Of a DNA stretch of 64,000 nucleotides, positions 2,742 through 64,000 are shown one piece after another. The translations under genes and the position numbers were made by a program. Origin of the DNA: Candidatus Saccharimonadota bacterium (GTDB taxonomy: Bacteria > Patescibacteriota > Saccharimonadia > Saccharimonadales > AWTP1-31); NCBI GenBank assembly GCA_003962975.1, contig RXKC01000007.1:26711-90710 (forward strand), read 5' to 3'. The notes below the pieces were generated by a model. It saw only the letters and a list, made by a program, of their open reading frames with translations, was not told the origin of the DNA and did not search any database. Numbering within the stretch: position 1 is the stretch's first letter; each line of letters opens with the position of its first letter.

Positions 2742-2767
2742 TACCAGCTATTATACCGCGCTCTTGC

Positions 2768-11118: not shown

Positions 11119-11159
11119 AACAGCTGATTATAACAGATACGCTACGAAGGTGGATGTTT

Positions 11160-16113: not shown

Positions 16114-17385
16114 TGGATGTATTATACCGGAACTTTCTTCTCTCTTGATATACTAGCTGGTATGCAATCATTACTCATTTTGGGCAGACAGCCCGCTCTT
16201 GGCCTGGCTGAGTTGGAAAGTTGGTGTGCCGCCGACAAAATCATGCCTATCGGCAATAATGCAGTTACGGTCGATATTGACCCGGCCGAGCTACCCTTTT
16301 TCCGCTTTGGTGGCAGTATTAAGTTGACGAAAGTCTTAACGGAGCTACCCCACGCCGACTTTAAAAAAGCGATTGAGTATATCAATAAAACAATCCCTGA
16401 GCATCTGCAGTACATTCCCGAAGGTAAAATTAAGTTTGGTATCAGCGTATACGGACTACGTGTGCAGACAAACGATATTAACCGAGCGACTTTACATATT
16501 AAAAAAACAATAAAAGCTGCAGGACGGTCAGTGCGCGTAGTACCGAATAACGAACCCAGTCTCAACAGTGCTCAGGTACTACACAATCAACTCACCTCGC
16601 CCGTAGGTATGGAATTGGTCCTTGTTCATAACAATGGTAAAACCATTCTTGCTCAAACGGTTGCTGAACAAGATATTGAAGCGTACGCTGCTCGAGACCA
16701 AAAACGTCCTAAACGTGACGCCAAAGTTGGCATGTTGCCCCCAAAACTAGCCCAGATTATCATCAACCTATCTGGCAATAACTTTACGCGTCAACAAGTC
16801 ACAGAGGCAGGTTTAAACACCACCCAAGAAAATTCTCTAGCTTCGTTAGCTACACTGCTCGATCCGTTTTGCGGAACTGGAGTGGTCTTACAAGAAGCCC
16901 TTTTGATGGGATTCAACGCCTATGGCACTGACCTGGATAAACGTATGGTGGAATATTCACAGGCTAACCTCGAGTGGCTGACGAGCAGGCAGAACGTTTC
17001 GGGAAGCTACAAAGTCAGCGCTGGTGATGCCACCACTACCACCTGGGAACCCTTCCATGGCATCGCTGGCGAAACGTACCTGGGACGACCGTTCTCTGCC
17101 CAGCCAGACCCCAAAGTTTTACAAGAAGTTATGCAGGATGTAAGTTTTATTCACAAGAAATTCCTGCAAAACGTAGCTCGCCAAACTGAACCCGGCTTTA
17201 GAATGTGTATTGCCGTACCGGCTTGGAAAACAAGCAGCGGCTTCAAACACCTTAAAACCCTTGATAATTTAGAGGAATTAGGCTATACTCGTATGGAATT
17301 TGTTCACGCAAAGGCGGAGGATCTGATCTACCACCGCGAAGGCCAAGTTGTTGCCCGTGAACTCGTCGTATTAGTAAGAAAGTGA
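16024..17385 (+). CDS. Putative class I SAM-dependent methyltransferase (Trm11/RlmL-like); probable start at 16117 or 16162
   Basis: Motif I LDPFCGTGVV followed by an acidic beta2 (AYGTDLD). The motif IV position is GETY rather than D/NPPY. The 5' end of the called ORF overlaps the upstream minus-strand gene, so an internal start is likely. Confidence 0.45.
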   Translation: MAHYIYEQGEAQERNDVQNHFPVRSQFLTHWMYYTGTFFSLDILAGMQSLLILGRQPALGLAELESWCAADKIMPIGNNAVTVDIDPAELPFFRFGGSIKLTKVLTELPHADFKKAIEYINKTIPEHLQYIPEGKIKFGISVYGLRVQTNDINRATLHIKKTIKAAGRSVRVVPNNEPSLNSAQVLHNQLTSPVGMELVLVHNNGKTILAQTVAEQDIEAYAARDQKRPKRDAKVGMLPPKLAQIIINLSGNNFTRQQVTEAGLNTTQENSLASLATLLDPFCGTGVVLQEALLMGFNAYGTDLDKRMVEYSQANLEWLTSRQNVSGSYKVSAGDATTTTWEPFHGIAGETYLGRPFSAQPDPKVLQEVMQDVSFIHKKFLQNVARQTEPGFRMCIAVPAWKTSSGFKHLKTLDNLEELGYTRMEFVHAKAEDLIYHREGQVVARELVVLVRK

Positions 17386-26428: not shown

Positions 26429-26522
26429 GCTTATTCATTATACCAAACCGCTTGTGCTGGATCAGCATAAATATCAAATCTTTTCAAAAGCAATGATTTT
26501 GTTGTCGTTAGCCTTAGTAAGA

Positions 26523-27611
26523 CTACTCGGCACCTAGGTTCTGTTCTAGGTAGGCATCAATAAACGGATCTAGGTTTCCGTCCAGAACGCCCTCGGCGTC
26601 ACTCGTCTCGTGGCGCGTACGCAAGTCTTTTACTTGTTTGTACGGATGCAGCACATAGCTACGAATCTGATTACCCCATTCTGCTGACTGGTTTGGACCT
26701 TTAAGCTCACTCAAGTGTTCTTGGTGCTGCTCGAGCTGCATAGCCGCAAGACGAGAGCGCAAAATAGTCATGGCTGTTTCTTTATTTTGCAACTGCGATC
26801 GCTCATTCTGAATCGCAACCGAGACACCTGTCGGAATATGCGTAATACGCACTGCAGAGTCAGTCGTATTAACGCTTTGACCACCGTGCCCACCAGCTCT
26901 GTACACGTCAATTTTTAGTTCTTTAGCATCAATCTCGAGTTCATTCGGACTATCTATCTTTGGCATAACCTCGGCTTTAGCAAAGCTTGTTTGACGTAAG
27001 TTGTCAGAGTTAAAAGGACTCAGTCGCACTAAACGATGTACGCCAGCCTCTCCAGCTAGTTTGCCGTACACAAATGATCCGCTAATTTCTAGTGTCGCAC
27101 GCTTCAGCCCGGCCTCGTCACCAGCTGCTTCGTCCAATAAAGTTACCTGCAATTTTTGTTGCTCCGCCCAACGGCTATACATACGCAGCAACATGGCCGT
27201 CCAGTCCTGGGCATCAGTACCGCCCGCGCCGGCAGATAAGGTCAGGACTGCATCGTGGTCATCATATTTACCACTGAAACGCAGGACGCTCTTTAGTTGA
27301 TCAAAGTCTTGCTGGCATTCAGTAAGCTGTTTCTGCAAATCATTAAGCAGCGTCTGATCCTGCAACTCAATAAGTTCACCTGTTTCCTGCAACTTCTTGC
27401 CCAGTAACTGCCAGGGCTCAATACGATTTTTAATACCTGCCTGCTGTTTAACGATTTCTTGCGCCTTAGCTGCATCACTCCAAAAGTCTGGCGCAAGAGC
27501 TTGAGCATCTAAGTCCGCAAGTTCACTAGCCAGCGTTTCAATATGTAGCTTTGAAACAGCCCTGTCGTAGTCTTGCTTCAGGACTTGATACTGCTTTTGA
27601 AGCTCTTCCAT
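26523..27611 (-). CDS. prfB: Peptide chain release factor 2, encoded in a single frame with no programmed frameshift site
   Basis: SPF tripeptide (VRLSPFNS) and GGQ motif (GHGGQSVN). The 362-aa ORF is uninterrupted. Confidence 0.9.
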   Translation of the reverse strand: MEELQKQYQVLKQDYDRAVSKLHIETLASELADLDAQALAPDFWSDAAKAQEIVKQQAGIKNRIEPWQLLGKKLQETGELIELQDQTLLNDLQKQLTECQQDFDQLKSVLRFSGKYDDHDAVLTLSAGAGGTDAQDWTAMLLRMYSRWAEQQKLQVTLLDEAAGDEAGLKRATLEISGSFVYGKLAGEAGVHRLVRLSPFNSDNLRQTSFAKAEVMPKIDSPNELEIDAKELKIDVYRAGGHGGQSVNTTDSAVRITHIPTGVSVAIQNERSQLQNKETAMTILRSRLAAMQLEQHQEHLSELKGPNQSAEWGNQIRSYVLHPYKQVKDLRTRHETSDAEGVLDGNLDPFIDAYLEQNLGAE

Positions 27612-33315: not shown

Positions 33316-33354
33316 GCTTATAGTATAGGGCGTACGCCATGTATGGGCTAGCCT

Positions 33355-49705: not shown

Positions 49706-50764
49706 ATGAATAAAGAACAAGCACTCCGCGACGAATTAGCTCAACTGCAAACCGAGTTAGAAGACCCGGCCATTTTTAGTTCGTCCCGCTACCCCAAGCT
49801 TGCCAAGAGACAGAGTGAGCTCGAAAAAACGCTCGGTCTTTTTGATACCATTGCAAAACTGACAAGCCAAGAAGCAGAAGCACAAGAACTCAGCCAAGAT
49901 AGCGATGTCGAAATATCCACCATGGCTAAAGACGAATTGGCGACAATCGCTGAGCAAAAAACACAAGCTCAGGCGGAACTCGCTGAACTACTGACGCCAC
50001 GAGACCCTAATGACGAACGCGACGCCATTGTCGAAATTCGGGGCGCTGCCGGTGGCGACGAAGCTAGCCTGTTTGCAGGCGACTTGTTTCGTATGTACTC
50101 TCGCTGGTGCGAGGCAAAAAACCTGAAAGTTGAACTGATCAATGAAAGCCCAAGCGAAGTTGGCGGCTTTAAAGAAGTTATTTTTGCCGTACGAGGTATT
50201 GAAGTCTTCAAAGTACTTAAGTTCGAAGCTGGTGTACACCGCGTGCAACGCGTTCCAAGCACCGAAAGCCAAGGCCGAATACACACGAGTACCGTCACCG
50301 TGTCCGTGCTGCCCGAGGCGGAAGAAACAGATGTAGAGATCAATCCCAGTGATCTGCGTATTGATGTCTACCGCAGTAGTGGGCATGGCGGTCAGAGTGT
50401 TAACACGACCGACTCCGCAGTACGTATTACTCACATTCCGTCTGGTCTGGTCGTAACCTGCCAGGACGAGAAATCGCAGATTAAGAATAAAGACAAGGCC
50501 ATGGGCGTGTTACGTTCACGTTTATTGCAGATTAAGATTGATGAAGAACAAAGTCGCCTTAGCGACGCACGCAAAAAGCTGATTGGTTCGGGTGATCGTA
50601 GCGAGAAAATTCGTACGTATAACTTTCCACAAGATCGCATCACTGACCACCGTATCGGTTATAGTCGCAGTAACATTCCTGGCGCATTAAGCGGTGACAT
50701 CGACGACATTATCGAAGCACTACAGACAGCCGAACAACAGATTATTAGCAATGAAAATAGCTGA
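49706..50764 (+). CDS. prfA: Peptide chain release factor 1
   Basis: PST (PxT) motif [13 protein letters not shown] and GGQ motif SGHGGQSVN. Ends with a TGA stop. Confidence 0.9.
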
Positions 50765-55316: not shown

Positions 55317-56193
55317 GATCTTCTACCTCCTTAGCTAAACTCTTGTAACTTCTCGCACCTTTTGACCATTTATCATGCTCCATGATCGATTTACCAAAAC
55401 TTGGTGCTTCTGCAAGTCGAACATTACGCGGCACAATAGTTTTCATAAGTTTATCTTTGAAGTGTTTCTTGAGCTCATCCACAACCTGGTCTGATAAAGA
55501 AGTGCGGCTGTCGTGCATGGTTACGACAATGCCTAGTAACTCGAGCTGTGGGTTCAAACCCTGTCTTACTCGTTGCATAACATCGAGCAACTGGCCCAGA
55601 CCTTCAAGCGCATAATACTCTGCCTGCACTGGCACAAGTATATAATTTGCCGCTGACATGGCGTTGATGCTCAAGAGCCCCAAAGAAGGCGGACAATCAA
55701 TAAGTATGTAATCATACTCGAGGTGAGCAATTGCATTCCTGAGCTTGTATTCGCGCTGCAGTTCTCCAGCCAAATCAACCTCTGCAGCAGCTAATTGTGC
55801 ATTGGCAGGCAAGATATGAAGCCCTGCCACAGCAGTGTCCTTAATTATCTGTTCACTCTTAGCATTGCCAAACAACGTATCGTACACCGTGCTGTCTAAA
55901 GTCTGCTTATCGATCCCTACTCCGCTTGTAGCATTACCCTGTGGATCGAGGTCAACCAACAAAACTTTTTTTCCTCGTTTGGCTAAGTAGGCGCCAATAT
56001 TAATAGTAGACGTAGTTTTACCTACGCCACCCTTCTGGTTGAGTACCGCTATGATTCTACCCATATGAATGTATCTATTTAAACATAAGCTTCTGCTATG
56101 TACCACCCCAGTTCCGCTGCAATGCCTATTCGCGGCGAAGGGCGTCGATAGGGCTAATCTTTTGCGCTCGGCGCGCTGGGAAGTAAGCCACAA
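55303..56193 (-). CDS. parA: Chromosome partitioning ATPase ParA/Soj (likely start at internal Met, 56064)
   Basis: Deviant Walker A NQKGGVGKTT. The called N-terminal 43 aa overlap the ABC permease gene, so an internal start is preferred. Confidence 0.85.
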   Translation of the reverse strand: MWLTSQRAERKRLALSTPFAANRHCSGTGVVHSRSLCLNRYIHMGRIIAVLNQKGGVGKTTSTINIGAYLAKRGKKVLLVDLDPQGNATSGVGIDKQTLDSTVYDTLFGNAKSEQIIKDTAVAGLHILPANAQLAAAEVDLAGELQREYKLRNAIAHLEYDYILIDCPPSLGLLSINAMSAANYILVPVQAEYYALEGLGQLLDVMQRVRQGLNPQLELLGIVVTMHDSRTSLSDQVVDELKKHFKDKLMKTIVPRNVRLAEAPSFGKSIMEHDKWSKGARSYKSLAKEVEDRVGK

Positions 56194-57352
56194 TTAAACC
56201 AACGATCAGCATGAAAGCTGTCAGCGCCGCTATGAGCCAAAGTGGCAGCGAGAATATTTCGAAGCGCTCGTTTACTCTTTGGGCAGCATTCTGATTAACT
56301 AGTTCGTTAATGACTCGACTAGCAATGAATGAACCAAACATACCAATGAATACACCGATAAGGGACAAGAGGACTGCTTCAATCATAAACAAGCGGCGCA
56401 TGTCACGTTTACGACCACCTAGGGTTATCATCAAACCAATCTCCTTTGTTCTTTCGAGCAAAGATATAGTCAAAGTGTTAAACATACCGAGAATAGCTAC
56501 GATAATACCAATACCACCGAATCCTGCCAGAATAATATTAAAGAACTTAAATAACTGATTTATTTGTTCAAGGGTATCAATGGGAGAGTTGGTTAGAAAG
56601 CCATTGGACTCAATTTGTTTTCGAAGTGTAGGAATATTACTGGTGTCATCAATGGTTACTTTAACTTGTTTATAAGTCGGAACACCCGCAACATCAAAGA
56701 CTGCACTTGGCACAAATATCTCGTTATTCTGGTCAGAATCGATGACGCCAACAACTTTAAAGGTATCCCGTAATTCATCCGCTTCACTGTCTGCCAATTG
56801 CAACGGCACCACTATCTCGATCTCTTGGCCCACAGCCTTCTTCGGGTCAGTTACACCAATGCCGCGCAAAGCCGACAGGCTAACAAGCGCAGATCGATTA
56901 TCGTTTTTTTGCAACAGCCGTCCTTCGAGTAAATTAAGTGTCGTTAAATCCTGGAAAGTCTGATCGACGCCGTAAATAACCGAATCGATTCCCCCGCCCT
57001 TAAGGGCCACACTCGAGGGGAACGAGTACTCTACGCCCACCTTTTCAATGTGCGGGAACCGACGAATTTTATTAACTGCCGTATCGTTGAGCTTGATAAT
57101 TTTAGAGTTTGGACTGGTTATTTCGATGGTCTTGATCGACTTATCGCCTATCACGTTATCGGTGACCAGCTTCTGTAAACCAAGCCCGAAAGAAATGAGG
57201 AAGGCAATCGATCCGATCCCCACCACAATGCCTGCGATTGTCAGGAATGATCTAAGCTTCTTGCTCGTTAAGTTCCGCCAGGCCATGTAAAACAGGGTGT
57301 TCAGATGAATCTTTGGCCGTTTTTTAATAGTATCGTCTTCTTGATTACGCAT
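56126..57352 (-). CDS. ABC transporter permease, FtsX/MacB-like
   Basis: N-terminal TM helix, extracytoplasmic domain, C-terminal FtsX 3-TM bundle. 8-nt overlap with the ATPase gene. Confidence 0.75.
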   Translation of the reverse strand: MRNQEDDTIKKRPKIHLNTLFYMAWRNLTSKKLRSFLTIAGIVVGIGSIAFLISFGLGLQKLVTDNVIGDKSIKTIEITSPNSKIIKLNDTAVNKIRRFPHIEKVGVEYSFPSSVALKGGGIDSVIYGVDQTFQDLTTLNLLEGRLLQKNDNRSALVSLSALRGIGVTDPKKAVGQEIEIVVPLQLADSEADELRDTFKVVGVIDSDQNNEIFVPSAVFDVAGVPTYKQVKVTIDDTSNIPTLRKQIESNGFLTNSPIDTLEQINQLFKFFNIILAGFGGIGIIVAILGMFNTLTISLLERTKEIGLMITLGGRKRDMRRLFMIEAVLLSLIGVFIGMFGSFIASRVINELVNQNAAQRVNERFEIFSLPLWLIAALTAFMLIVGLIVAYFPARRAQKISPIDALRRE

Positions 57353-58127
57353 CTTGTTTCTTCCTTGCTAGATGGTCTATACGAGCCTTCATCTGATTAA
57401 GCAATGTTTCCGTAGTCTCGCTAATATCGCCACTTTGCATCTGCTGGCATTGCCCGTCCTGGATGTGCACCAGTTGGTCTGCAAGTGGCAAATACTCCAT
57501 ATTATGTGTCACCAGAATGATCGTACGATTAAGGTCTCGCTGATAGCTTTCAAGCAGAGCCATAATCATGTCACCATTCTTGCTATCCAGACTTCCCGTT
57601 GGTTCGTCGGTAATGATTACCGATGGATCATTTACAATAGCGCGAGCCATGGCAATACGCTGTTGCTCACCACCAGATAGCATGAGTGGACTTTTCTTGG
57701 CAAAAGGTGCCATGTCTACTCGTTGCAGCGCGTCCATAGCTTTTTTGGCCGCTGCAGCACGGTTATAGCCCAAAAAGAACAGTGGAATCGACACATTTTC
57801 GATGACATTAAGGCTATTCACCCAATAGTTCTGCTGGTAGACCACCCCTATACTTTTTGCCCTAAAGTAGGCTAGTTGTTCGGCGGAATACTTGTATATA
57901 TCTCTACCGTCGTATGTAACCTGCCCACCACTGGGAACCTGGATACCACTCAGGACATTGAGAAGGGTTGATTTACCCGACCCTGAAGGGCCATAGATAA
58001 TGTTGAAGGAGTTCTTTTTGATTGTGAAACTACTTGGATGAAGTACTTTGAGCATCTCTTCTCCAATCTTGAAAGATTGCTCCAGGTTGCTAACACGAAT
58101 AAGAATTTGCCCACCCTCGTCTTGCAT
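57345..58127 (-). CDS. ABC transporter ATP-binding protein (MacB-like)
   Basis: [24 protein letters not shown] motifs. 4-nt overlap with the 3' end of the giant surface-protein gene. Confidence 0.85.
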
Positions 58128-58129
58128 AC

Positions 58130-61100
58130 CTAAAGCCCAAATACCTTTCTCAGTGTGTTGAGTACTATGTTCAATACACTATCTGAGGCACGGCCGATAA
58201 TAGCAGCCTGCGGCTTGGTTGTTGAAGCGTTGTTTGATTTGTCTCGCGATACCGGCATGATGCTATAGACTCGGCTTGGCGGCAAGTCAGAAACAATAAC
58301 TAAGTGCTCGGTCGTAAGCTGAGCATCTTCGGCGGTACGATTGTTAAATACCGTAACTGCTGAACCTTCGGCGTAGGCTACTTGGCTTGTGGAAGGCTCA
58401 TCTGTCTTCCAGGAAACAACGATTTGTCCGCGGGCCTCTGCACCCGTACCACGAATAGTTGGCTCGATAACCACATCAAAGACATTCGGTGGACGAGTAT
58501 CTAGCGCTGTCTTGAAAACTTGACGATCTGATACAGCTAGGTTACCACTGGCGTCACGCCCCTGGGCGATTAAGAAGTACTCACTATTATCTTCAAGTCC
58601 ACGAATGACCATTTCATGCATGGTCTTTAGCTCCTGAGATTGAACAATCGTACCATCGGTGCCAACCTTGCCATATTGCACGATCGAATTTGTCGGGATA
58701 TTAGTCGTCCAGGTAACTTGCTGAGTACTAGTCGGCTCACCAATAAGTGGCTGAAAACGCAGATTACTAATTGCTGGTCGTGGTGGAGTGGTGAAAGAGA
58801 ATATACTGCTCTGATATTTACCGCCTTCTGTATCTTGCATGACTAAGCGGTACAGATACTTCGTGCCGTCGTCCAGGCCATTCAACTCAAGTTCATAGGT
58901 CGATTCGCTGAGGGCAGTATTTATTGATTTTACGCCGCCAAATGAATCGGTTCGCCCGTACTGCAACTCAACTTTTACGGCGTCCTTGACAGTAAACTGC
59001 AGTGTTACGGTCGATAAGCTGACAGAAAGTGTGTCCACCTCTTTCAATACAGGAGCGGGCGCAGTCGTAAAGCTATATTCTTGACTTACTCCGGTGTTAC
59101 CGTCGGTGTCGGTCCAACGTGCCTGGAAGTAATAGGTTGTCCCGGCAGCTAAGTTGTCTAGGTCCAGCTTATGAGCTGTCACTTGTGATGAATTACCAAT
59201 TTCTGACGGACTGTATTCACCGCTAGTCACTCCAATGGCAATCTTACTGTCGGAAGCTCTATCTGTAGACCACGTGATTGTTGCCCGCTTAGTAGTGACA
59301 CCACTAACTACTGGTTCACTGGTCATTGCAGCAGGTTCCGTAAACTTACCCGTTGGAATCATCGAGGCAACTCCCGTAAATGCTCCGCAGTTATTGGCGC
59401 TATCGCAGGCTCGCACCTTATAGTAATACTCTACCTGGCTTAAGCCACCGTCGACAAAAGATGTGCCGCTACTAGATCCAACTTGAGTAAAGTTACTGTT
59501 ATCAGTGGAACGGAAAACTCGGTAGCTGCTTACACCAGCGCCGACATTTGCCGGTGCATCCCATGTTACCGCCAACCTCCAGTTGCTGGTTGCCTTCACA
59601 GACACATCAGCTGCATCTATATTAGTTGGTATTCCTGGCGCCGGGGTGTTAGCTGTAAACGTTACGCTCGCATAGCTCGAATAGTTAATTGCTCCAAAGT
59701 CATCTTTACCTACGACATAGAGAGTGTTCGACCCAGGCTGGGTTGCATACGGTCCATCGGGCAAACTAGTTACTCCAGCAGCCGTAAAGTTACAGTTACT
59801 TACATTAGGCAGGGTATTAACGACGTAACAGTATGTCAGCCTATCTGGTTGGCCTGTGGTCGTATTAAAGGTAGCCGGTGCATCCCAAGAAAATTCGAAT
59901 TCGTTAGTCGTATTAGTGGCAGGAGTTGCTGTAAGGTTCTGCGGCTCACTCGGTGCACCAGTCGTATTAATACGCAGTACTGCCGTGACGTAGCTATTTG
60001 TCACGTTACCGGCGGCATCCCATGTTCTAAAGTAGACAGTATTGATGCCGTCGACAAGATTATCAAAGTCCGGCGGGTCAACGGTTGTATAGTTGCCGTC
60101 ACCGACCGTCAGCAGGTCATTGATATCGCCGGCGCCAGTATGATCTTCGCCGTACCATGCAGTGTTGCCAATTCGATATTGCAAGCCCGCTACTCCAGAG
60201 TTTGCATCACTAGCTGCATCTCCCCCAGTGGTTGGCCAAGTTATTGTTGCTGTTTTGGTATTTATAAATCCAGAAGGTGCTGATACATACCCCGGGTTAG
60301 CTGGTGCTGTATTGTCGAATCTAAACTGGAATTGTTCCGAGGTCGAAGCAACATTACCAGCTTTATCTATCGCCTTGATATTGAGGTAGTACGGCGTGTT
60401 TGAACTGGACAGTGCGGTTCCTAGCAGTCCAGACGTTGCCAAATCGAGGCTCGTACCAGACACGGCAAACTGACACGCCGAATTGGTATCTATCGGGCTG
60501 GCACCGAGTAATCCTTTGCTCGTTTCAGGATCATCGCTAGAAGAGTGGCCAAGGTATAGACAATATCCCAAGATGCCTGCCCCGCTATCAGTTCCAGCCG
60601 TCCAGGTAAAGTATGGCGAGGCTCCGTTGGTCCATGCATTTGAATTTAAACTAGTCCCACCATTCGACTTGAAGGCTAGAATGTTCGAAGCATTAGTATC
60701 CGGCCCATTATTATCTGCATTAGCGCCCAGTTCAACTGAATTTACAGTAACCTGCTGATTGCCATCCCCTTTAAGCAATGCCTGCCACATTAAACCGTCA
60801 AAGGTCACCGGAAAATCACCTATGTTTGCATTGATCACGGAAGCAGCATTAGCGTCTGACACACTACTTGATAGGACCCAAGCTGATCCATTCCAGTACT
60901 TCCAGGTATTGCCTTCGTTATCACTCAGGCGATAGGTTATTGCTCCGCCGTTAGTGATCTCACTAGTAGTGAAGCTGTCCCAGTCTTGCACCCCAGACTT
61001 GCGCACAGCCGACGACAACACAACACCTTGGTGTGTATTTGCATACGGCCTACTATTAAAACTCGTCCGGGCTGTATTACTTATCCTAATTTCATCTAAA

Positions 61101-63496
61101 GTTCCCGCAAAGTAGTCCGCCCCATCTCCTGCAACCTTACTGCCGTATCCTCGACCGATCAGTAGCGGGAGGTCATTATCTACGGTACTCGTGCTCACTG
61201 TTGCCGTTGTTTCTAGGGTGCCATCAATGTAGATTTTTACCGTCGCGCCATCCAGCACTACCGCATAGTGGTGCCAATTTGTATCAAAAGAAGTGGTCGT
61301 CGACTCAGCATAGCCATTTGCACCGTATGAATATACTAACGCGTCTTGGTTCTGGCTAAGGCCAGTACCGGCATATAGTTTCCCCTTATAACTAGAAAGT
61401 GTATAAATTGCCTCAATAGTTGCGCCCCAGCTACTGTTTATTCCGTCTCCTGCTATCTGTGTCCATGTACTGCCATTGTACGTATATATATCCCCCGCAC
61501 CTGTATTGCTAAAGCCTGCTTGGCGCATTCCCGCGACCAGCACACCGTTGTATACCGTAATCGCAGATACATGGGAATAGCTTCCATTCTGCCAACTAGA
61601 ATTGAGACCACCCCCACTAATCTGAGTCCAGGTACTACCATCCCACTTCCAGACATTTGCTAACAGATTTGTGGCATCGCTATAGCCGACATACAGATCA
61701 TCGTTGTATACACCCATAGAGTTCACCTCGACAGTGTTAGCCACTGTTGGCCAACTGCCGTTTACGCCATCACCGGCAATCTTCGTCCAAGACGAACCGT
61801 TATAACACCACACATGAGCAGCTCCACCATACCGGCCGTTAGATGCGCATAACTGATTACGAAATACTGTTAAAGCACCGACATCTGTAGCAGCCCAGGT
61901 ACCGGCTATCCCTGTTCCACCAATCCTCGTCCAACTTGTATCGTTATACTCCCAAACCCATGCCGTATTGCTGGTTCCACCCATACCGGCATACAGTTTG
62001 CCGTTGTACACTGCTAATGAGCTTAGTTGCAGCACGTTATTCCAGCTAGTATTCACACCATCACCACCAATCTTAGTCCAAACAGTACCATTCCAGCTGT
62101 ATACATCTGAATCGCTTCCGTTACCAGAGCCGAGTCCAACTATAAGAGCCCCCTTATAAGAGGTCATTGATGCGACAGTTTCGTACGTGTTGCCGGGCCA
62201 GGCACCGTTACTATTCAACCCAAAACCACCGCCAATCATGCGGGCCGTGTTCCCATCCCACTCATAAACATAAGCGTTATTTGCACCACCTAGGACGCCA
62301 ACATATAGCTTGCCGTTGTGGACGGTGCTTGATACCACAGCCGCTGATCCAAAATCCGACCAGCTATTATTGAGGTAACTCCCTCCGATTAGCGTCCAAG
62401 CATTTGAACCATTCCATGTATGTATTGCCGGATACACGTTTGCGTTTGCAGATGGCGCAGCAAAAAGCGTTGATCCAACAAACTGAAGGCCAAAAACCTT
62501 GTCATATGCTGCAGCCGTCCAGCTATTTGCCACTGCTGTACCGCCAATCCTTGTCCAAGAGCTACCATTCCAACGCCACAACTCACCACCTGACATATAC
62601 GTACCTACATATAGGTTAGTTCCGTCATCAGTCATACTTAGTATCTGAGTTGCTGTAAACGAGCTGTTCACGCCATCGCCGCCAACTTTAGTCCAAGTAC
62701 CACCGTTCCAACGCCATACCTCACCATCACCTGGTGCCGTTAAGCCTAATCCAGCATAAAGCATCCCGTCAACATGACGCAGCGTCATAACTGATTCATA
62801 GTCAGTACCCCAGCCACTATTCAAGCCATCGCCACCGATTTGCGCCCAAGCACTACCGTTCCAACGCCATACATCAGCATCACCAGCACTTGTACCAAGT
62901 CCTGCATACAAGTTTGTACCGTCGGATGCCAAAGACAATACCTGCTCAAACGTACTCGCTGCCCAGCTACCATTCAAACCATCGCCGCCAACTTGCGTCC
63001 ATGACGTACCGCCGTTATGTCGCCACAAGTCACCGCCCGCTACCGCGTCACCCATACCGGCATATAAGACACCGTTGTGAAAAGCAAGAGATCGAACCGT
63101 ATGATACGCATTGGAGTAACCCAGACCATCCCCGGCAATCTTAGTCCAGCTTGTGCAGTTTGTAGTAGTATTACAGCTCCAAACTTCTCCATCACCAGCG
63201 TTATTGCCTAACCCGGCATAGAGAATATTATTGTGCCAAGTCATCGAGTATACGCCTTCGTACACTTGATCGGGCCAGCTACCGTTTACTCCATCGCCAC
63301 CGATCTTGTTCCAGGTAGTGCCGTTCCACTTCCAGACCTCTGCATCGCCCGCACTTACACCAAGCCCCGCATAGTAGTTAGTGCCGTCAGTTGCTGATGA
63401 ATCTACCTCATAGTGCCCAAACGACCAACTGCCGTTCGTATCACCACCCATCTGTTTGGTCCAGCTGTTATTGGTATTACTCTGGGCTTCGTACAC
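58130..63496 (-). CDS. Giant secreted multidomain protein (1788-aa portion): W/G-rich beta-propeller-like repeats, LamG-like lectin domain, multiple FN3-like domains
   Basis: At least 13 tandem repeats of the form YAGLG..GDGEVWRWNG..W..IGGDGVN.SW. A LamG domain (VKIYIDGTLETTA...FAGTLDEIRISN) and FN3-like segments (NLTATPATNT..FSWDAP; YRVFRSTDNSNF). It is in frame with the upstream signal-peptide ORF across one TGA. Confidence 0.8.
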   Translation of the reverse strand: MYEAQSNTNNSWTKQMGGDTNGSWSFGHYEVDSSATDGTNYYAGLGVSAGDAEVWKWNGTTWNKIGGDGVNGSWPDQVYEGVYSMTWHNNILYAGLGNNAGDGEVWSCNTTTNCTSWTKIAGDGLGYSNAYHTVRSLAFHNGVLYAGMGDAVAGGDLWRHNGGTSWTQVGGDGLNGSWAASTFEQVLSLASDGTNLYAGLGTSAGDADVWRWNGSAWAQIGGDGLNSGWGTDYESVMTLRHVDGMLYAGLGLTAPGDGEVWRWNGGTWTKVGGDGVNSSFTATQILSMTDDGTNLYVGTYMSGGELWRWNGSSWTRIGGTAVANSWTAAAYDKVFGLQFVGSTLFAAPSANANVYPAIHTWNGSNAWTLIGGSYLNNSWSDFGSAAVVSSTVHNGKLYVGVLGGANNAYVYEWDGNTARMIGGGFGLNSNGAWPGNTYETVASMTSYKGALIVGLGSGNGSDSDVYSWNGTVWTKIGGDGVNTSWNNVLQLSSLAVYNGKLYAGMGGTSNTAWVWEYNDTSWTRIGGTGIAGTWAATDVGALTVFRNQLCASNGRYGGAAHVWCYNGSSWTKIAGDGVNGSWPTVANTVEVNSMGVYNDDLYVGYSDATNLLANVWKWDGSTWTQISGGGLNSSWQNGSYSHVSAITVYNGVLVAGMRQAGFSNTGAGDIYTYNGSTWTQIAGDGINSSWGATIEAIYTLSSYKGKLYAGTGLSQNQDALVYSYGANGYAESTTTSFDTNWHHYAVVLDGATVKIYIDGTLETTATVSTSTVDNDLPLLIGRGYGSKVAGDGADYFAGTLDEIRISNTARTSFNSRPYANTHQGVVLSSAVRKSGVQDWDSFTTSEITNGGAITYRLSDNEGNTWKYWNGSAWVLSSSVSDANAASVINANIGDFPVTFDGLMWQALLKGDGNQQVTVNSVELGANADNNGPDTNASNILAFKSNGGTSLNSNAWTNGASPYFTWTAGTDSGAGILGYCLYLGHSSSDDPETSKGLLGASPIDTNSACQFAVSGTSLDLATSGLLGTALSSSNTPYYLNIKAIDKAGNVASTSEQFQFRFDNTAPANPGYVSAPSGFINTKTATITWPTTGGDAASDANSGVAGLQYRIGNTAWYGEDHTGAGDINDLLTVGDGNYTTVDPPDFDNLVDGINTVYFRTWDAAGNVTNSYVTAVLRINTTGAPSEPQNLTATPATNTTNEFEFSWDAPATFNTTTGQPDRLTYCYVVNTLPNVSNCNFTAAGVTSLPDGPYATQPGSNTLYVVGKDDFGAINYSSYASVTFTANTPAPGIPTNIDAADVSVKATSNWRLAVTWDAPANVGAGVSSYRVFRSTDNSNFTQVGSSSGTSFVDGGLSQVEYYYKVRACDSANNCGAFTGVASMIPTGKFTEPAAMTSEPVVSGVTTKRATITWSTDRASDSKIAIGVTSGEYSPSEIGNSSQVTAHKLDLDNLAAGTTYYFQARWTDTDGNTGVSQEYSFTTAPAPVLKEVDTLSVSLSTVTLQFTVKDAVKVELQYGRTDSFGGVKSINTALSESTYELELNGLDDGTKYLYRLVMQDTEGGKYQSSIFSFTTPPRPAISNLRFQPLIGEPTSTQQVTWTTNIPTNSIVQYGKVGTDGTIVQSQELKTMHEMVIRGLEDNSEYFLIAQGRDASGNLAVSDRQVFKTALDTRPPNVFDVVIEPTIRGTGAEARGQIVVSWKTDEPSTSQVAYAEGSAVTVFNNRTAEDAQLTTEHLVIVSDLPPSRVYSIMPVSRDKSNNASTTKPQAAIIGRASDSVLNIVLNTLRKVFGL
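60400..63450 (-). repeat. Coding tandem-repeat array (about 50-75-aa period) inside the giant gene
   Basis: Reiterated W-x-W-N-G / I-G-G-D-G-x-N-x-S-W peptide motif seen throughout the first ~1000 residues. Confidence 0.55.
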
Positions 63497-63547
63497 TAAT
63501 TTTCCCGAGGACCGGTCTAGATTAACTCGATGTGAACCCTTATCTAG

Positions 63548-63973
63548 TCAGGTTTGGGAGGTACTCGAGTTATTATTGAAAGTACTACTAGGCTTAAACC
63601 AGCCTTCAATAGTCTGTTGGCTACCAAGAGATAACGAGCCAGAATCTTGAACAGATACAGACTGGCTCGTACCATTTAATGTCAGTCCGTTGTTCATTCT
63701 TCCTGAACCCCAACTAGGACTGCCCACAGTTGAGCCGTTATTAGCATTAGAGGAACTATCAGTTACCGTCGTACCGCTCGTACTGTTCATGTGCGCCAAA
63801 AAACCTGTTAGTGAATCACTGCTGTATTCTTGGGCTTTCAGGCGAGCACTATTGCCGTTAAATTCAACCCCAGCGTCAAGTGCATACTCACTCTGACTGC
63901 TAAAGTCCCAGGTATTTGTGAGGTCTGCTGCCAAAGCAATCCGAACGGTACTAAACACCATCAGCCCAACCAC
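63548..63973 (-). CDS. Signal-peptide-bearing N-terminal segment of the giant protein gene, separated from the body by a single in-frame TGA; may extend beyond the window edge
   Basis: MVGLMVFSTVRIALAADL signal peptide, Ser/Thr/Asn-rich. Same reading frame as 58130..63496 (coordinate difference divisible by 3). No stop between 63973 and the window end at 64000. Confidence 0.6.
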   Translation of the reverse strand: MVGLMVFSTVRIALAADLTNTWDFSSQSEYALDAGVEFNGNSARLKAQEYSSDSLTGFLAHMNSTSGTTVTDSSSNANNGSTVGSPSWGSGRMNNGLTLNGTSQSVSVQDSGSLSLGSQQTIEGWFKPSSTFNNNSSTSQT

Positions 63974-64000
63974 CAGTAAGTAAGATCCAAGGGTTCCATA

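What the first reader, a model, noticed from the sequence alone, without database searches (positions are those of the whole stretch)
63497..63550. Single in-frame TGA splits a >5.8 kb giant surface-protein gene between its signal peptide and its body
The ORFs 63548..63973 (signal peptide plus a Ser/Thr-rich segment) and 58130..63496 (1788 aa) are in the same frame. Only one TGA separates them, followed by 17 sense codons (LDKGSHRVNLDRSSGKL) before the first alternative start. TGA is a real stop here, since prfA ends in TGA and RF2 is encoded. A 6-bp inverted repeat (CTAGAT/ATCTAG) starts directly 3' of the TGA. The options are a recent nonsense mutation or assembly error, phase-variable expression, or programmed readthrough of a giant adhesin. 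Without the upstream segment the body has no signal peptide.
Basis: seen in the sequence. Interest (0 to 1): 0.65.

Follow-up and report, generated by a model that had tools for sequence, protein, structure and literature searches.

The report
Nonsense mutation in Saccharibacteria giant envelope gene
A conserved 2,000-residue cell-envelope protein gene of a Saccharibacteria (TM7) bacterium carries one real premature TGA stop that none of 56 related species has, so this is an ordinary lineage-specific knockout (or near-knockout) mutation and not a recoding signal.

Summary
On the minus strand, one TGA (63550..63548) separates two same-frame ORFs.

- **One gene.** The two ORFs are one gene, a roughly 2,017-codon envelope protein. 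In 44 of 50 complete orthologous loci of other Saccharibacteria species it is a single ORF, followed directly by a MacB-type ABC transporter.
- **Not conserved.** At the TGA column, 56 species have Ile, Val or Leu inside the conserved motif Q-x-[IVL]-x-DKG. Four species have TTA there. One reads ACC TTA CTA GAT against ACC TGA CTA GAT here, so a single T-to-G change explains the stop.
- **Position.** The stop lies inside a LamG jelly-roll domain, not between the signal peptide and the body. That domain is itself split by a roughly 700-residue repeat insertion.
- **TGA is a true stop here.** RF2 is present, TGA ends 5 of 53 genes, and no other coding-strand in-frame TGA junction occurs in the window.
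- **Not an assembly error.** The allele recurs in at least three independent datasets.
- **No recoding signal.** There is no stimulatory RNA structure, no selenocysteine signal, no repeat tract, and no ribosome-binding site for a restart.
- **Recent.** The rest of the gene shows no decay, so the mutation is recent.
- **What remains open.** Low-level leakage through the weak UGA-C context cannot be excluded.

Verdict: ordinary, low interest.

The parts
63548..63550 (-). In-frame premature TGA (context ACC TGA CTA GAT, +4 = C)
   Evidence: At this column 56 orthologous loci have I (31), V (18) or L (5), plus 2 that are misaligned by one residue, and never a stop. L060 reads ACC TTA CTA GAT.
63551..64000 (-). 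Upstream part of the same gene. It runs off the window; the true start is about 60 codons beyond 64000. It contains the membrane anchor or signal sequence LLVVGLMVFSTVRIALA|ADL at about 63929..63994.
   Evidence: L001 is 100% identical over 16.6 kb. GenBank annotates it as the 211-aa RTK94457.1.
58130..63547 (-). Remainder of the gene after the TGA: 1,805 sense codons plus TAG. It has no signal peptide of its own.
   Evidence: Annotated separately as the 1,788-aa RTK94456.1. No SD-like or -10-like motif precedes GTG 63496 or ATG 63451.
63476..63676 (-). N-terminal third of a LamG (Laminin_G_3) jelly-roll domain. It contains the TGA.
   Evidence: With the repeats spliced out, Pfam PF13385 matches profile positions 1-146 of 151 at 77.5 bits, against 65.4 bits (positions 67-146) for the C-part alone. 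Three orthologues behave the same way.
61373..63475 (-). About 700 residues of roughly 50-residue repeats (W-x-W-N-G-x-x-W-x-x-I-G-G-D-G type, Kelch/propeller-like) inserted inside the LamG domain
   Evidence: 10 strict motif copies. Homologues show weak Rax2 / Kelch propeller Pfam hits.
61064..61372 (-). C-terminal two thirds of the LamG domain
   Evidence: PF13385, E = 2e-15, 57.6 bits (cut-off 27.6), profile positions 46-146.
58832..59608 (-). FN3 / purple-acid-phosphatase-N type Ig-like domains in the C-terminal third
   Evidence: PF16656 at 63.6 bits, PF00041 at 38 bits, PF16655 at 25 bits.
56126..58127 (-). MacB-type ABC transporter genes (ATPase 57345..58127, MacB_PCD/FtsX permease 56126..57352). 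The ATPase start lies 2 nt after the giant gene's stop.
   Evidence: The ABC ATPase gene follows the giant gene within 60 nt or less in all 44 intact orthologous loci.
26523..27611 (-). prfB (RF2, SPF motif, no frameshift), the factor that reads UGA as stop
   Evidence: TIGR00020 at 448 bits, cut-off 370.
49706..50764 (+). prfA (RF1), itself terminated by TGA
   Evidence: TIGR00019 at 466 bits, cut-off 423.
63517..63547 (-). 6-bp inverted repeat CTAGAT/ATCTAG with a 19-nt spacer, judged to be a chance feature
   Evidence: not in the minimum-energy fold, z = +0.27.: -4.4 kcal/mol alone, and 408 comparable repeats occur in the window.

Best explanation
**What it is.** This is one gene, not two. 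It encodes a roughly 2,017-codon membrane-anchored envelope protein that is conserved across Saccharibacteria (order Saccharimonadales). Its layout is a basic tail and membrane anchor, a LamG domain carrying a roughly 700-residue propeller-like repeat insertion, a central region, Ig/FN3-like domains, and then a MacB-type ABC transporter operon partner downstream.

**What happened.** In this lineage a single base substitution, most simply TTA (Leu) to TGA, created a premature stop in a hydrophobic strand of the LamG domain.

**What is shown.**
- The stop is real.
- It is specific to this lineage.
- UGA is a stop in this organism.
- The rest of the gene is undecayed.

**What is inferred.**
- RF2 terminates translation at the TGA, leaving a membrane-anchored stub of about 150-210 residues that cannot form the LamG fold.
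- The remaining 5.4 kb is essentially untranslated, because it has no ribosome-binding site or promoter-like box and no export signal.
- The allele is therefore a recent loss-of-function allele, or at best a strong hypomorph.
- It may have polar effects on the ABC transporter genes immediately downstream.
For: **One gene**
- Homology runs across the TGA in 17 database proteins and 56 species loci.
- 44 of 50 complete loci are single ORFs of 1,912-1,998 codons, followed directly by the ABC gene.
- The window gene has the standard length.

**Stop not conserved, and one step from a sense codon**
- The column is I, V or L.
- TTA occurs there in 4 species.
- L060 differs at that codon only by T versus G.

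**UGA is a stop in this organism**
- RF2 and RF1 both pass curated cut-offs.
- 5 of 53 genes end in TGA, including ATGA and GTGA stop-start overlaps.
- No other coding-strand in-frame TGA junction exists in the window.

**The allele is real**
- The identical 1,773-aa downstream product is on 8 contigs.
- The truncated N-fragment is on 7 contigs.
- The datasets include ENA ERZ27290348, Logan SRR7877879, an NCBI MAG, and contig JACCDT011858741.1, which carries one synonymous difference plus the TGA.

**The mutation is recent**
- The window protein deviates at 17 of 417 highly conserved columns. The intact closest orthologue L014 deviates at 17 of 415.
- dN/dS of the C-terminal third is 0.026 against L002 and 0.045 against L008, like the housekeeping neighbours.

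**No rescue signals**
- RNA fold z = +0.27.
- No relevant Rfam match.
- No SD or -10 box before the downstream starts.
- The TGA is inside the LamG domain.
Against: - No intact allele of the same species was found anywhere. The stop allele is therefore the only known state of this lineage, and it persists in many samples. This would also fit a tolerated, partly expressed gene.
- The context UGA-C is the weakest bacterial termination signal (PMC5289835), so some full-length protein may still be made.
- 1,805 downstream codons remain open. That is expected for a young mutation but does not prove loss of function.
- No expression or protein data are available.
Confidence: 0.8

Rival explanations
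1. Leaky, non-programmed readthrough. The weak UGA-C signal lets a near-cognate tRNA (probably tRNA-Trp) insert an amino acid at a low rate. The lineage then still makes a small amount of full-length exported protein, and the allele is a selected or tolerated hypomorph rather than a null.
For: - +4C after UGA gives the least efficient termination in bacteria (PMC5289835).
- The allele is the only one found for this lineage and occurs in several datasets.
- The downstream frame is fully open and undecayed.
- The closest N-terminal relative (L072) has a different in-frame TGA at a conserved Trp codon.
Against: - RF2 is present and TGA is used as a genuine stop.
- There is no stimulatory structure and no conservation of the stop.
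- Lack of decay is equally expected for a very young null allele, because the contigs carrying it are at least 99.95% identical.
- Another relative (L073) is broken by TAG, TGA and a frameshift together. This fits plain gene decay or low-coverage error, not UGA-specific decoding.
- Among contigs carrying the TGA, the two variants in the downstream part are both nonsynonymous. This is a weak hint of relaxed constraint, and one of them is at a contig end.
Confidence: 0.12
2. Assembly or sequencing error: the true sequence has a sense codon.
For: Giant repetitive genes in MAGs often carry artefactual breaks. Examples among the orthologues are L065 (a run of N at nearly the same place), L044 (paired homopolymer indels) and L073 (2.8x coverage).
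Against: - The change is a clean substitution in non-repetitive sequence.
- It is reproduced in contigs from different runs and assemblers: MEGAHIT-style ENA contigs, Logan contigs, an NCBI MAG, and an independent metagenome contig with its own SNP.
Confidence: 0.03
3. Programmed recoding of UGA: selenocysteine, UGA = Trp or Gly as in codes 4 and 25, or conserved programmed readthrough.
For: Some other Patescibacteria (Gracilibacteria, Absconditabacteria) read UGA as Gly (own knowledge). An inverted repeat lies 3' of the TGA.
Against: - Orthologues have I, V or L at the site, not Cys, Trp or Gly.
- RF2 is intact.
- This is the only in-frame TGA on the coding strand of 53 genes.
- The hairpin is weak and not significant, and Rfam finds nothing.
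- The stop is absent from all 56 species.
Confidence: 0.02
4. Phase-variable (contingency) expression: the stop is the OFF state of a reversible switch.
For: Surface proteins are typical contingency genes. The distal two thirds of this gene differ strongly between close strains.
Against: - There is no homopolymer, short tandem repeat or invertible segment at or near the codon.
- Reversion would need one specific base substitution.
- Only the OFF allele was seen in all contigs.
Confidence: 0.03

Closest known systems
Premature-stop alleles of surface-protein genes fixed in clonal lineages (for example inlA premature-stop alleles of Listeria monocytogenes; own knowledge)
   Same: A single nonsense substitution in a large envelope or adhesin-type gene, carried unchanged by a clonal lineage that is found repeatedly in independent samples, while other lineages keep the intact gene.
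   Different: Here the stop comes very early, after about 10% of the protein and inside the first folded domain. The organism is an uncultured Saccharibacteria bacterium, and no phenotype or intact sister allele is known.
UGA-C weak termination contexts in bacteria (the prfB frameshift site; Poole et al. 1995, as cited in PMC5289835)
   Same: The tetranucleotide UGA-C, read by RF2, is the least efficient termination signal.
   Different: Those sites are conserved and regulatory. This one is not conserved in any orthologue and has no associated slippery or Shine-Dalgarno element.
Programmed UGA readthrough (phage Q-beta coat/A1 protein; own knowledge)
   Same: A UGA followed by a long in-frame extension.
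   Different: In Q-beta the stop is conserved and the extension is a distinct functional module. Here the stop interrupts a domain and is unique to one lineage.
UGA reassignment in other Patescibacteria (code 25 in Gracilibacteria and Absconditabacteria; own knowledge)
   Same: The same superphylum, and an in-frame UGA.
   Different: Those lineages lack RF2 and have in-frame UGA throughout their genes at Gly positions. This genome encodes RF2, uses TGA as a stop, and has one in-frame TGA at an I/V/L position.
LamG / Laminin_G_3 (PF13385) concanavalin-A-like lectin domain proteins
   Same: The protein contains a PF13385 domain well above the gathering score.
   Different: The domain is interrupted by a roughly 700-residue repeat insertion after about profile position 66. 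This architecture is conserved in the whole Saccharibacteria family, and neither Pfam nor NCBIfam recognises it as one unit on the native sequence.

Membership tests
Nonsense-disrupted gene (loss-of-function allele / young pseudogene) | In-frame stop at a position that is a sense codon in orthologues, with homology on both sides | tested here: met
   56 of 56 species loci have a sense codon (I/V/L), and TTA in 4 species is one base from TGA.
Nonsense-disrupted gene (loss-of-function allele / young pseudogene) | The codon is decoded as stop in this organism | tested here: met
   RF2 is present and above the curated cut-off. TGA ends 5 of 53 genes, including overlapping stop-start pairs. No other coding in-frame TGA exists in the window.
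Nonsense-disrupted gene (loss-of-function allele / young pseudogene) | The allele is real, meaning reproducible in independent data | tested here: met
   at least 3 independent datasets, with 7-8 contigs.
Nonsense-disrupted gene (loss-of-function allele / young pseudogene) | Full-length product absent | not testable with these tools
   Needs proteomics or a reporter assay.
Programmed stop-codon readthrough | Stop codon conserved among orthologues | tested here: not met
   no orthologue has a stop at this column.
Programmed stop-codon readthrough | Stimulatory context or downstream RNA structure | tested here: inconclusive
   The UGA-C context is weak (PMC5289835), but there is no structure: z = +0.27 and the hairpin is -4.4 kcal/mol.
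Bacterial selenoprotein gene | Cys or Sec at the homologous position, and a SECIS hairpin just 3' of the UGA | tested here: not met
   The column is I/V/L. There is no significant hairpin and no Rfam match. No tRNA-Sec is in the window. The rest of the genome was not seen.
UGA-reassigned genetic code (codes 4 and 25) | RF2 lost, and in-frame UGA widespread at conserved Trp or Gly positions | tested here: not met
   RF2 is intact. There is a single in-frame UGA in the window, at an aliphatic position.
Phase-variable contingency locus | Hypermutable repeat tract or invertible element at the switch, with both states in populations | tested here: not met
   No repeat lies at the site. Only the stop allele was found.
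Laminin_G_3 (PF13385) domain protein | Match above Pfam gathering score | tested here: met
   57.6 bits against a cut-off of 27.6 (profile positions 46-146); 77.5 bits over positions 1-146 once the repeat insertion is spliced out.

The most novel reading that the evidence does not exclude
The TGA is not a dead end. The weak UGA-C signal is read through at a low rate, so this widespread Saccharibacteria lineage keeps a trickle of a giant envelope protein that every other species makes at full strength. That would be a naturally selected 'dimmer' allele. The closest relative (L072) carries an independent in-frame TGA in the same gene at a Trp codon, which may echo this.
Probability: 0.1. Interest if true: 0.45.

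Novelty: already known. Interest (0 to 1): 0.15.

Why it matters
**Annotation.** GenBank lists the two pieces as separate hypothetical proteins (EKI60_03680 and EKI60_03675). They should be one disrupted gene.

**Biology.** The allele is a natural knockout, or near-knockout, of a giant envelope protein that is otherwise kept intact across Saccharibacteria. In all 44 intact loci checked, that gene is followed directly by a MacB-type ABC transporter gene. The allele occurs in a lineage that still turns up in many metagenomes. This suggests the protein is dispensable under some conditions, which is useful for anyone who later studies the function of this uncharacterised family. It does not reveal a new mechanism.

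Tried and rejected
- **Selenocysteine or SECIS.** Rejected: the column is I/V/L in orthologues, there is no significant fold, and Rfam finds nothing.
- **Alternative genetic code.** Rejected: RF2 is present and this is the only coding in-frame TGA in the window.
- **Inverted repeat as a signal.** Rejected: 408 comparable repeats in the window, -4.4 kcal/mol, not in the minimum-energy fold.
- **Independent expression of the body.** Rejected: no SD-like or -10-like motif before GTG 63496 or ATG 63451, and no signal peptide.
- **Search for an intact allele of the same species.** None was found among 5.8 billion proteins; the best hit spanning the site is 66% identical. The only exact-flank match in the metagenome contigs also has the TGA.
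- **GTDB representative.** The GTDB representative set holds no genome closer than 61% identity for this gene, so the species itself is not represented there.
- **First locus search.** The search with alignment A1 failed because no stretch was conserved enough. It was redone with A2.
- **Direct Pfam or PDB sequence search of the N-terminal segment.** This gave nothing. A comparison with P0042 matched only the repeats. The LamG assignment of that segment rests on the spliced-construct test.
- **Literature.** Searches for this protein family in Saccharibacteria papers found no description.
- **Structure prediction.** Not run.
- **Recurrent in-frame TGA in the clade.** Considered after L072. However, L073 mixes TAG, TGA and a frameshift at 2.8x coverage, and L014, L015, L018 and L021 are intact, so there is no consistent pattern.

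Full report
**1. The observation**

The minus strand of 63300..64000 reads ...AGT ACC TCC CAA ACC TGA CTA GAT AAG GGT.... Translating 58130..64000 in one frame gives 150 sense codons, one TGA (63550..63548), then 1,805 sense codons and a TAG.

ORF listing confirms the two same-frame ORFs.

A scan of all six frames shows this is the only coding-strand TGA in the window flanked by at least 100 open codons on both sides. The other coding-strand cases are TAA or TAG between ordinary neighbouring genes.

One correction is needed. The upstream ORF has no start in the window. A contig that is 100% identical over 16.6 kb (L001, ENA ERZ27290348) extends 4.1 kb further. It shows a basic N-terminal tail followed by the hydrophobic anchor LLVVGLMVFSTVRIALA|ADL.

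**2. Organism and genetic code**

Homologues are all from Candidatus Saccharibacteria / Saccharimonadales MAGs. The window corresponds to an NCBI MAG in which the two pieces are annotated as separate hypothetical proteins, RTK94457.1 (211 aa) and RTK94456.1 (1,788 aa).

Evidence that UGA is a stop in this organism:
- RF1 (49706..50764, PST motif) and RF2 (26523..27611, SPF motif, not frameshifted) are both encoded and pass NCBIfam curated cut-offs.
- Of 53 large ORFs, 26 end in TAA, 22 in TAG and 5 in TGA. The TGA cases include ATGA and GTGA stop-start overlaps and prfA itself.

**3. One gene, and the stop is not conserved**

Seventeen database proteins at 36-66% identity align straight across the TGA.

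A scan of one genome per GTDB species returned 57 Saccharibacteria loci. In the 56 loci that cover the site, the column is Ile (31), Val (18) or Leu (5), plus two sequences that are misaligned by one residue. It sits inside the conserved motif Q-x-[IVL]-x-D-K-G and is never a stop.

The codon there is TTA in four species. L060 reads CAG ACC TTA CTA GAT AAA GGG against CAA ACC TGA CTA GAT AAG GGT here. One T-to-G transversion of a Leu codon is therefore enough to explain the stop.

In 44 of 50 loci that contain the whole gene, it is a single ORF of 1,912-1,998 codons (measured from the ADL motif). An ABC ATPase gene follows within 60 nt. The window gene has the standard length (1,932 codons on the same measure).

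The six exceptions are:
- frameshifts in L020 and L041;
- paired indels in L044, of the kind long-read assemblies produce;
- a run of N in L065;
- an in-frame shorter version in L063;
- loss of homology in L039.

**4. Where the stop lies**

Pfam finds Laminin_G_3 only at residues 877-979 of the joined protein, and only from profile position 46 onward. I deleted the roughly 700-residue repeat region in silico and joined the N-terminal segment to that C-terminal part. The match then became one stretch over profile positions 1-146 of 151 at 77.5 bits, against 65.4 bits for the C-part alone. Three orthologues behaved the same way.

Two conclusions follow:
- The jelly-roll is interrupted by a nested array of propeller-like repeats, and the TGA replaces an aliphatic residue of a strand inside that domain.

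The stub ending at the TGA therefore cannot form the domain. The rest of the protein lacks both the first strands and any export signal.

**5. Real or artefact**

- The exact 1,773-aa product called downstream of the stop is on 8 contigs.
- The truncated N-fragment is on 7 contigs.
- Contigs carrying the TGA come from ENA ERZ27290348, Logan SRR7877879, the NCBI MAG, and metagenome contig JACCDT011858741.1. The last has its own synonymous SNP and the TGA.

An assembly error is therefore very unlikely. No intact allele from the same species was found. The best protein that spans the site is only 66% identical.

**6. Age and selection**

- At columns that are at least 95% conserved among the other orthologues, the window protein deviates at 17 of 417. 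The intact closest orthologue L014 deviates at 17 of 415, and the range across intact genes reaches 19.
- For the C-terminal third, dN/dS is 0.026 against the strain behind L002 (dS 0.48).
- The same measure is 0.045 against L008, which is 97.7% identical (dS 0.094).
- These values are like those of the neighbouring ParB, HtrA, S2 and EF-Ts genes.

The gene was under strong constraint until very recently. Contigs carrying the TGA differ by at most one SNP each, so the allele is young. Of the three SNPs that fall in the gene, the two downstream of the stop are nonsynonymous. This is a weak hint of relaxed constraint, and one of the two lies at a contig end.

**7. Signals for recoding or restart**

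- The 101 nt around the stop fold no better than shuffled sequence (z = +0.27), and the inverted repeat is not in the minimum-energy structure.
- On its own the hairpin is -4.4 kcal/mol, and 408 positions in the window start a comparable repeat.
- Rfam has no relevant match.
- No tRNA gene lies in the window.
- There is no repeat tract at the site.
- Neither GTG 63496 nor ATG 63451 has the SD-like or -10-like motifs seen before other genes.
- The one feature that favours some leakage is the +4 C. UGA-C is the least efficient termination signal in bacteria (PMC5289835).

**8. Interpretation**

The best explanation is a recent nonsense substitution, specific to this lineage, in a conserved envelope-protein gene. 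It gives a null or strongly hypomorphic allele, with possible polarity on the tightly coupled ABC transporter genes (this last point is inference).

- **Passive low-level readthrough** cannot be excluded and is the main rival.
- **Excluded by the tests above:** programmed readthrough, selenocysteine, code change and phase variation.
- **Excluded by recurrence across datasets:** assembly error.

**9. Relatives with their own breaks**

- The closest N-terminal relative (L072, 66% identity) has Ile at this column. It carries an in-frame TGA about 43 codons further on, replacing the conserved Trp of the NGSW motif.
- Another relative (L073, 2.8x coverage) has TAG, TGA and a frameshift.
- Equally close species (L014, L015, L018, L021) are intact.

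I therefore read these as sporadic breaks or low-coverage errors in a 6-kb target, not as a UGA-specific phenomenon.

**10. Verdict**

It is an ordinary kind of event, and its value is mainly for annotation and as a natural knockout of an uncharacterised, highly conserved Saccharibacteria envelope protein. Interest is 0.15.

Noticed in passing
window 61064..63676 (minus strand); same in L014, L023, L042: The LamG (Laminin_G_3) domain of this protein family is split. Its first third and last two thirds are separated by about 700 residues of propeller-like repeats. Pfam matches the whole profile only after the repeats are removed in silico. This nested architecture is conserved across Saccharibacteria and has no family model in Pfam or NCBIfam.
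   Followed up: partly
window 56126..63547 and loci L014-L070: The giant gene is followed within 60 nt by an ABC ATPase gene in all 44 intact orthologous loci. In the window that ATPase gene is followed by a MacB_PCD/FtsX permease gene. This suggests a conserved functional module of unknown role.
   Followed up: partly
L001 2508..3671 (just beyond window position 64000): An rve-family integrase/transposase gene lies between rplU and the giant gene in this lineage. In the closest relative (L072), rplU is followed directly by the giant gene after 188 nt. One Logan contig (L011/L013) breaks just downstream of the integrase gene, as expected for a repeated mobile element. The TATAAT-like box upstream of the giant gene is retained.
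   Followed up: partly
L002 1..4572 (Logan SRR28640823): In a strain whose flanking genes are 88-99% identical in DNA to the window, the last 677 residues of the giant protein are 96.6% identical. Residues 433-1280 are only 60.5% identical, as distant as another species. A 2-nt deletion (AACACAGCA to AACAGCA) sits exactly at the junction. This is either recombinational replacement of the distal part or a chimeric contig. dS between adjacent genes also varies from 0.02 to 0.69, which suggests a recombination mosaic.
   Followed up: partly
L072 about 1100 (Logan SRR25018341); L073 1350..1420 and about 2340 (ENA ERZ795014): Two relatives carry their own in-frame stops in the same gene. L072 has TGA in place of the conserved Trp of NGSW. 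L073 has TAG and TGA ten codons apart plus a frameshift, at 2.8x coverage.
   Followed up: partly
window, upstream of many genes, e.g. 2742..2763, 11119..11140, 16114..16135, 26429..26450, 33316..33337: Many genes have a TATAAT-like box only 5-10 nt before the ATG and no Shine-Dalgarno sequence (for example 'ggtataatagctggta ATG' and 'gttataatcagctgtt ATG'). This suggests leaderless or very short-leader mRNAs. Only 24 of 37 ATG-start genes have even a 4-nt SD-like match.
   Followed up: no
L065 8362..8371: In one GTDB genome the orthologous gene is interrupted by a run of 10 N and unrelated sequence only a few codons upstream of the column where the window has its TGA. This is a scaffolding artefact, not a biological parallel.
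   Followed up: yes
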